Source: Squalus acanthias
Lineage: Eukaryota
NCBI GenBank assembly: GCA_030390025.1
Contig: CM059443.1
Location: 33,604,001-33,668,000 of the forward strand
DNA length: 64,000 bases
Reading direction: 5' to 3'
This document shows, one piece after another, positions 7,087 to 7,128 of the stretch. Below the pieces are notes generated by a model. It was not told the DNA's origin. It saw only the letters and a list, made by a program, of their open reading frames with translations, and ran no database searches. Position 1 is the stretch's first letter. Every line of letters starts with the position of its first letter. A program made the position numbers and the translations under genes.

Positions 7087-7128
7087 TCACCTGAGGAAGG
7101 AGCAATCGATAGCTCCGAAAGCTTGTGA
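7087..7128 (+). ncRNA. Minimal type I hammerhead ribozyme in the PLE pseudo-LTR
   Basis: TCAC-CTGAGGA-A-GGAGC-aatcgata-GCTCC-GAAA-GC-TT-GTGA: stem I, CUGANGA box, stem II, GAAA box, palindromic AAGCTT in place of helix III. Confidence 0.85.

What the first reader, a model, noticed from the sequence alone, without database searches (positions are those of the whole stretch)
7087..7128. Minimal self-cleaving hammerhead ribozymes in PLE family 1, varying only at free positions
Seen: seven copies (3982-, 7087+, 32377-, 34634-, 34844+, 51519-, 51558+). The large element has CTGAGGA with loop II AATCGATA, while the small ones have CTGACGA with loop AGC. The catalytic boxes, GGAGC/GCTCC stem II and the AAGCTT palindrome are unchanged, and one copy has a G.U wobble in stem I. 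Known: minimal type I hammerheads with a palindromic helix III occur in PLE pLTRs and are proposed to cleave as dimers. Inference: variation limited to N7 and loop II indicates selection on ribozyme function between subfamilies. Predicted cleavage is GCUU^GUGA.
Basis: partly seen in the sequence, partly recalled or inferred. Interest (0 to 1): 0.7.

Follow-up and report, generated by a model that had tools for sequence, protein, structure and literature searches.

The report
Penelope hammerhead at the RNA's tip
This is the stripped-down self-cutting RNA motif already known from Penelope-type jumping genes; tens of thousands of copies in this genome show its core kept by selection, likely place it at the capped start of the element's RNA, and carry a rare extra G exactly at the predicted cut, a possible trace of cutting inside cells, which has not been shown for these elements.

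Summary
The seven motifs are there, but they are four insertions (three are mirror-image pairs on opposite strands, so none can form a cis dimer). They are known minimal type I hammerheads of a Neptune-type Penelope-like element: 49,805 exact matches genome-wide, control 0. Genome-wide, variation is not limited to N7 and loop II: stems I and II change with compensation, H17 is U or C, and a 3,606-copy clade has U4C. Selection is still supported: 1 of 11 core columns varies between subfamilies against 64 of 88 upstream. The conserved palindrome is AGCU (ACGU in a second family), not AAGCUU. Beyond the finding: copies stop 0-12 nt upstream of C3 six to seven times more often than further upstream, with an extra G before a conserved A 30-34 nt behind a TATA box, so most short copies likely come from capped, uncut RNA. 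The scan noted this before in other genomes. Not in scan notes or papers searched: a G duplication exactly at the predicted scissile bond (68 of 100 listed insertions; 2 in the same context downstream), absent from partner arms. It may record cleavage in vivo; an RT pause is the rival. Nothing was assayed.

The parts
3920..3931 (+). left target-site duplication of the large insertion (12 bp)
   Evidence: same 12 letters at 7214-7225
3932..4686 (-). inverted, tail-less arm: last 111 codons of the ORF, 3' UTR and a second hammerhead (core 4019 to 3986)
   Evidence: 100% identical to 6424-7181 over 758 bp; tblastn
4687..6759 (+). 5'-truncated PLE ORF: RT, CX4CXXC linker, C-terminal GIY-YIG; starts at residue 231 of the intact relative P0001, one frame break near 5717-5719
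   Evidence: RVT_1 E 3e-8; 96.5% and 90.8% identity to P0001; GIY-YIG look-alikes, score 0.96
7052..7058 (+). TATA box, 32 nt before the inferred start
   Evidence: TATAWA starts 30-34 nt upstream in 48 of 80 long insertions, 1 hit elsewhere in the 100 nt
7084..7084 (+). inferred transcription start (A, 7 nt upstream of C3, initiator-like context)
   Evidence: A in 90 of 94 long insertions; 5' ends pile up here with an extra G
7087..7128 (+). minimal type I hammerhead: stem I 7087-7090/7125-7128, C3-A9 7091-7097, unpaired A 7098, stem II 7099-7103/7112-7116, loop II 7104-7111, G12-A15.1 7117-7120, helix III palindrome AGCT 7120-7123, H17 7124, predicted cut 7124/7125
   Evidence: sequence; monomer fold gives stems I and II only
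7181..7218 (+). optional 'tail', ending at the AUG (7216-7218) that opens the ORF in tandem copies
   Evidence: 91 of 94 inverted pairs carry it on one arm only; ORF start in L091
7214..7225 (+). right target-site duplication
32282..32522 (-). solo 5'-truncated copy with TATA box, hammerhead (core 32409 to 32381) and tail; no duplication found
34538..34942 (.). inverted pair in a 10-bp duplication; minus arm (tail) ends at the inferred start, plus arm carries the G.U stem I; the arms differ at subfamily positions
51458..51695 (.). inverted pair in a 13-bp duplication; plus arm (tail) begins at the inferred start behind a G at 51554 (that G could also belong to the partner arm)

Best explanation
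The motif is the minimal type I hammerhead of a Neptune-type Penelope-like retrotransposon, conserved across subfamilies, and it likely forms the first 45 nt of a capped RNA polymerase II transcript, where it is predicted to cut only slowly, as a dimer through its AGCU palindrome and probably with help from the element's protein. Shown: anatomy, copy number, subfamily-level conservation with compensatory stem changes, TATA spacing, the pile-up of 5' ends and the extra G. Inferred: transcription starts 7 nt upstream of C3 in the TCAC/TATA subfamilies; the element's RT primes about 95 and 130 nt downstream (before and after the tail), on both nicked target strands, and runs off the capped end, adding one C, which yields the short solo and mirror-image copies; these templates are mostly uncut, as a weak, dimer-dependent ribozyme allows. 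Inferred and untested: cutting happens in a minority of RNAs that hold two copies (3,046 nt apart in a tandem such as L091, or two RNAs in one complex) and serves to decap or release unit-length RNA, possibly for circularisation.
For: Core 1 of 11 columns variable among 68 long insertions vs 64 of 88 upstream columns. Stem I pair 2.3-1.3 is C-G 35, T-A 30, T-G 2, C-A 1, and a tree built without the ribozyme places the two T-G copies between the T-A and C-G clades; stem II 10.5-11.5 C-G 60, T-A 7. Helix III is palindromic in 339 of 342 descriptor hits: AGCT 325, ACGT 14 in a second family. Unpaired A and G10.1-C11.1 match the published min-HHR traits (PMC4209133). 5' ends: 60 of 166 flank-picked arms stop 0-12 nt upstream of C3 (3.4% per nt vs 0.53% further up), 2 of 186 within 2 nt of the cut. 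Purine before the start A: 80 G, 20 A in the first 100 of 2,971 (counted by eye); double-ended junctions 93 G of 100 arms in the first 50 of 90 loci, 6 of the 7 A being CpG-decay forms. An extra G marks capping in full-length L1 insertions (PMC11702581, passage). In a lizard PLE the ribozyme cuts only with protein and uncut RNA is the main template (PMC11167929, sections read).
Against: No cleavage assay. The double-hammerhead fold (-23.5 kcal/mol) is less stable than two monomers (-26.0) or a misfolded dimer (-36.9). A U4C clade reached 3,606 copies, though U4C lowers activity in vitro (PMC3088659, passage). The start signature failed in the TTAC/CTAC subfamilies: 27 G, 40 A of 67 at the position that their TTTAAA-type box predicted, and no G excess at +7 (72 hits). 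In non-inverted copies alone the G excess is weak (16 G, 9 A at +7 vs 7 G, 13 T at +6; Fisher p 0.07), and 2 of the G cases with a clear duplication were target-templated. Each compensatory change is about one event on the tree. The 52 nt downstream of the anchor are also conserved (8 of 52 columns variable), so the 3' end as a whole is constrained.
Confidence: 0.72

Rival explanations
1. The motif is kept as a structural or promoter element (initiator plus downstream promoter sequence, protein-binding or RT-positioning fold) and its cutting is no longer needed.
For: It lies directly behind the inferred start, where downstream promoter elements sit (D. virilis Penelope has an internal promoter, PMC2377424 passages); U4C spread to 3,606 copies in several loop variants; copies ending at the cut are rare (482 of any cause); ribozyme mutants did not affect insertion in vitro (PMC11167929); Naiad PLEs thrive without it (PMC8557442 passages).
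Against: Variation follows catalytic rules, not promoter rules: N7 takes three bases, H17 recurs only as U or C, the stems covary, and helix III switches AGCT to ACGT as a pair between families; U4C is a natural tolerated variant in a viroid (PMC3088659).
Confidence: 0.18
2. The pile-up just upstream of the ribozyme comes from RT stalling or fold-back at the structured motif and from microhomology joining, not from an RNA 5' end.
For: Ends are spread over 13 nt, with peaks at +3, +6, +7; many junctions use the partner arm's GGTGA as microhomology; signature absent in one subfamily group.
Against: Symmetric junctions with C and G facing each other cannot be templated by either arm and no T..A counterpart occurs in 50 loci; a TATA box sits at the textbook distance; the +6 control shows no G excess.
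Confidence: 0.1

Closest known systems
Minimal type I hammerheads (min-HHR) of metazoan PLE pseudo-LTRs (Cervera and de la Pena 2014, PMC4209133; abstract, results, discussion and part of methods read; supplements not seen)
   Same: No loop III, palindromic 15.2-16.2, unpaired base between 9 and 10.1, G10.1-C11.1, 4-bp helix I, thousands of solo copies, pairs on opposite strands, tandem copies about 3 kb apart around a PLE ORF.
   Different: About 50,000-70,000 copies against about 4,000 and 9,000 reported for coelacanth and Xenopus; helix II is 5 bp; natural core variant here is U4C rather than U3-A8; no cartilaginous fish named in the parts read.
PAc Poseidon element of the green anole (Frangieh et al. 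2024, PMC11167929; main text read)
   Same: Two RT start sites flanking a 30-40 nt tail, both target strands extended, ribozyme near the ORF start, uncut RNA as main template.
   Different: PAc is Penelope/Poseidon clade with the start codon inside the ribozyme; here the AUG lies 91 nt after the cut and the protein has the CX4CXXC linker; no reads at the cut were found for PAc, and no genomic mark at the cut was described.
Neptune (or Nematis) clade EN+ PLEs (Craig et al. 2021, PMC8557442; passages)
   Same: RT, CX2-5CXXC linker, C-terminal GIY-YIG, partial tandems, inverted 5' copy, one-sided tail.
   Different: Clade not tested by a tree with named references; Neptune is preferred because only Neptune and Poseidon were found in vertebrates (bioRxiv 10.64898/2026.07.22.740005, passages).
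Non-LTR retrozymes of animals (PMC7229834 passages; bioRxiv 10.64898/2026.07.22.740005 first part and passages)
   Same: Type I hammerheads that need dimers, derived from PLE ends, circularised by RtcB in vitro.
   Different: Retrozymes are short head-to-tail arrays; the copies here are solo or head-to-head, and only 17 of 200 loci held two same-strand copies.

Membership tests
minimal type I hammerhead of PLEs | core CUGANGA ... GAAA ... UH with helices I and II and no stable helix III | tested here: met
minimal type I hammerhead of PLEs | palindromic 15.1-16.1 stretch | tested here: met
   339 of 342 hits
minimal type I hammerhead of PLEs | unpaired base between A9 and G10.1; G10.1-C11.1 pair | tested here: met
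   A in 109 of 109; G-C in 107 of 109, the T alleles being CpG-type
minimal type I hammerhead of PLEs | located in both pseudo-LTRs of a PLE ORF | tested here: met
   L091: two direct copies 3,046 nt apart around an open 892-codon ORF
minimal type I hammerhead of PLEs | self-cleavage as a dimer or with protein | not testable with these tools
   folding energies only; public runs were contigs
Rfam hammerhead families | score above gathering threshold | tested here: not met
   0 hits in the window; minimal forms lack helix III
EN+ PLE, Neptune/Nematis type | RT followed by CX2-5CXXC linker and C-terminal GIY-YIG | tested here: met
   Pfam itself did not call GIY-YIG
EN+ PLE, Neptune/Nematis type | placement in the Neptune clade by RT phylogeny | not tested
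   no named reference sequences fetched
non-LTR retrozyme | two or more short head-to-tail units each with a hammerhead | tested here: not met
   none in the window; same-strand neighbours in 17 of 200 loci, mostly kb apart or nested insertions

The most novel reading that the evidence does not exclude
The genome records ribozyme cleavage in vivo: when the element's RT crosses the scissile bond of an RNA that was cut there (still nicked, or re-joined into a linear or circular template) it stutters and copies G1.1 twice. About 1 copy in 900 carries this mark. If so, PLE min-hammerheads do cut and are re-joined in the germ line, which would support the circular-template model for PLE tandems.
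Probability: 0.35. Interest if true: 0.75.

Novelty: new member of a known kind. Interest (0 to 1): 0.5.

Why it matters
The ribozyme itself is ordinary for Penelope-like elements. What it does in them is stated to be unclear (PMC8557442 passage), and in the one element tested in vitro no cut ends were seen in RNA data (PMC11167929). A young family of 50,000-70,000 copies gives three handles: natural variants for a cleavage series (stem swaps, H17, U4C), an exact predicted RNA start that puts the ribozyme right behind the cap, and a position-specific G duplication at the cut that can be tested in a one-tube RT assay on nicked, re-joined and intact RNA.

Tried and rejected
Rfam at gathering scores: nothing. 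Pile-up of 5' ends at the cut, expected if the 3' product were the template: not found; in non-inverted ends at the cut, A far outnumbers G (about 15 to 2 by eye), so run-off with an added C at a cut end is not supported. Prediction of a shifted start (+13) for the TTAC/CTAC group: failed; +7 in that group: no signal. A splice acceptor just upstream of stem I, as in D. virilis: AG present in some subfamilies only, rejected. Excess deletions or substitutions at the cut: none (43 scattered deletions; 114 vs 134 substitutions). G duplication as an inherited subfamily trait: rejected, many subfamilies and absent from 9 of 9 visible partner arms. G duplication as a TTGTG context error: rejected, 2 of 19 insertions at the same five letters downstream. 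The same test in family 2 does not discriminate, because the cut lies between TT and AA runs (60 of the first 100 of 143 insertions are compatible with the site, by eye). Public runs: 24 listed, all contigs; they show the family present but cannot show ends, and no listed piece confirmed the extra G, so an assembly artefact is not excluded by independent reads. Lunse et al. (dimer cleavage) was not held; I rely on its description in PMC6765202 (passages). The descriptor parser allowed up to 2 mismatches per core box and left 35 of 280 arms unparsed, nearly all cut by a junction. The 280-arm sample included 30 loci found by the core pattern and 20 hand-picked stretches; the result held in the 196 arms picked by flank alone, while searches used the mixed sample.

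Full report
Observation. A regex scan found the seven motifs at the stated places, plus four motifs of a second family. Self-BLAST shows that the copies at 7091+ and 4019- lie in a 758-bp inverted repeat of 100% identity flanked by a 12-bp duplication at 3920 and 7214; the pairs near 34.7 kb and 51.55 kb are likewise single insertions with 10- and 13-bp duplications. Seven copies are thus four insertions, and every pair is on opposite strands, so no transcript of the window carries two sense copies in tandem. Rfam finds none. [quoted passage not shown] The linker points to the Neptune or Nematis clade (PMC8557442, passages); no tree with named references was made. That the host is a cartilaginous fish is my recall of its repeats and the wording of scan notes, not a call result.

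What is known. Cervera and de la Pena (PMC4209133; abstract, results, discussion and part of methods read, supplements not seen) define these minimal hammerheads, list the unpaired base after A9, the G10.1-C11.1 pair and the palindrome at 15.2-16.2, and report no cutting as monomer and low cutting as dimer. Frangieh et al. (PMC11167929, main text read) show for a lizard element that cutting needs the protein, that uncut RNA is the main template, that both target strands are extended from two start sites flanking a 30-40 nt tail, and that no RNA reads start or end at the cut. The motif, the dimer idea, the inverted pairs and the one-sided tail (91 of 94 pairs here) are therefore known.

Selection. 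The family has 49,805 exact core matches (control 0), 70,015 matches to the 3' half and 76,763 to a downstream anchor. I collected 280 arms in 179 insertions from 200 loci; 30 loci came from the core search and 20 were hand-picked, so I repeated the main counts on 196 arms picked by flank alone. There, G5, A9, A13, A14, A15.1, G15.2 and U16.1 are invariant in 109 parsed insertions (the parser allowed two mismatches per box; 27 arms, nearly all cut by junctions, did not parse), N7 takes C, G or A, H17 is T 98 or C 12, and U4 is C in 6. Among 68 long insertions of the mixed sample, 1 of 11 core columns carries two recurrent bases against 64 of 88 columns in the upstream 130 nt (p 7e-5). Stem I pair 2.3-1.3 is C-G 35, T-A 30, T-G 2; a tree of the upstream 230 nt alone (52 rows) puts the T-G copies between the two clades, and puts U4C with the stem II change C-G to T-A in one clade. 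These are single events, not many. A generic descriptor gave 342 hits in 1.11 Mb (1 in three shuffles): AGCT 325, ACGT 14 in family 2, three single changes. U4C has 3,606 copies in several loop variants; it lowers activity in vitro yet supports viroid infection (PMC3088659, passage). Against: the 52 nt downstream are also conserved (8 of 52 columns), and single copies decay neutrally (134 substitutions at U16.1 vs 114 at H17).

Where the RNA starts. 5' ends of arms pile up 0-12 nt upstream of C3: 81 of 241 in the whole sample, 60 of 166 in the flank-picked one, 3.4% per nt against 0.53% further upstream; only 2 of 186 end within 2 nt of the cut. The base 7 nt upstream of C3 is A in 90 of 94 long insertions and a TATAWA box starts 30-34 nt before it in 48 of 80. 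Copies that begin at this A behind a purine number 2,971, with G 80 and A 20 in the first 100 (by eye); the +6 control (2,070) shows no G excess in non-inverted rows. In junctions where both arms end at this A, 93 of 100 arms in the first 50 of 90 loci have G, six of the seven A are CpG-decay forms, three loci look duplicated, and no T..A junction occurs. An extra G is the mark of the cap in full-length L1 insertions (PMC11702581, passage), and an initiator-like TCACT behind a TATA box was noted in a rotifer pLTR (PMC3846280, passage). Limits: non-inverted copies alone give p 0.07, duplications resolve only some of them, and the TTAC/CTAC subfamilies show no such signal at +13 or +7. I reached this reading before looking at scan notes; several notes report the same cap-ended stubs in other genomes, which is agreement, not independent proof. 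Searches for it in print listed no paper whose title or abstract start describes it. About 7 of 74 inverted pairs have arms differing at subfamily positions (by eye; L180 has a clear duplication), so two RNAs can serve one insertion, which would also bring two ribozymes together.

A mark at the cut. Of 116 one-base insertions genome-wide in the 7 nt between GAAA and the linker, the first 100 (by eye) are: G exactly at the scissile bond 68, A-run 19, T-run 5, A or T at the bond 3, duplication of G15.2 2, of G1.3 0, other 3. The same five letters 35 nt downstream give 2 such duplications among 19 insertions; the 5' stem II region gives 11 scattered insertions in one subfamily. The 20 loci in hand span many subfamilies, and in 9 of 9 with a visible partner arm the partner lacks the G, so it arises per copy, at about 0.11%. 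Three of the 20 also begin at the capped start and eight extend past the TATA box. Against a cleavage origin: no excess of deletions or substitutions at the site; 0 of 68 in GTAA-type subfamilies, which are 17 of the first 100 intact copies, so local sequence matters; family 2 cannot decide; public contigs did not confirm it. My odds: stutter at a nicked or re-joined bond 0.35-0.4, pause or slippage on intact RNA at the end of stem I about 0.4, template switch or assembly artefact about 0.2. That RT can pass a 2'-5' link is recalled, not from a call. One paper search and one scan look-up found no such mark described.

Mechanism. Best reading: a TATA-initiator promoter in the element's 3' end fires 7 nt before the ribozyme; the capped RNA folds stems I and II but cannot form helix III alone; RT primes downstream at the tail and mostly copies uncut RNA, giving stubs and mirror pairs; cutting needs a second copy and likely the protein, since the active dimer fold is not the most stable one (-23.5 vs -36.9 kcal/mol). 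A transcript from this start cannot restore its own TATA box, so tandems like L091 need a template jump or a circle (inference); the ribozyme may serve that step. Rival readings are a structural or promoter role without cutting, and RT stalling without a true RNA end.

Verdict. The genome-scale results, above all the G at the cut, make an open question testable, hence 0.5.

Noticed in passing
window 26419+, 58603+, 57946-, 38226-: Second hammerhead family with helix III ACGT instead of AGCT, different stems and the same unpaired A; two of the four window copies are cut or decayed.
   Followed up: partly
L095, L105, L107, L108 and 3,606 genome matches: Young clade with U4C in the catalytic core, linked to a C-G to T-A change in stem II, spread over several loop II variants.
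   Followed up: partly
L168:3874-4003, L174 (minus strand): One copy inserted into the TATA region of another copy, leaving two same-strand ribozymes about 125 nt apart, a natural cis-dimer candidate.
   Followed up: no
window 7104-7111: Loop II of the large subfamily holds a 6-nt palindrome that makes a catalytically wrong stem II duplex the most stable homodimer; related loops in other subfamilies are also partly palindromic.
   Followed up: partly
window 7141-7205: The stretch after the ribozyme folds into a long hairpin whose 3' strand lies in the tail, between the two inferred RT start sites.
   Followed up: no
window 19363-21901: Tandem array of about 2.5 kb with a unit near 32 bp and about 95% identity.
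   Followed up: no
window 9098-9604, 15022-15429, 16193-17257, 44910-45458, 55614-56213, 60821-61369: Fragments of LINE-type reverse transcriptase frames (CR1/L2-like by recall) scattered through the window.
   Followed up: no
L223 (G000:C1:21326632): A stub starting at the inferred cap position sits directly behind the 5' part of a PLE ORF in the same orientation.
   Followed up: no
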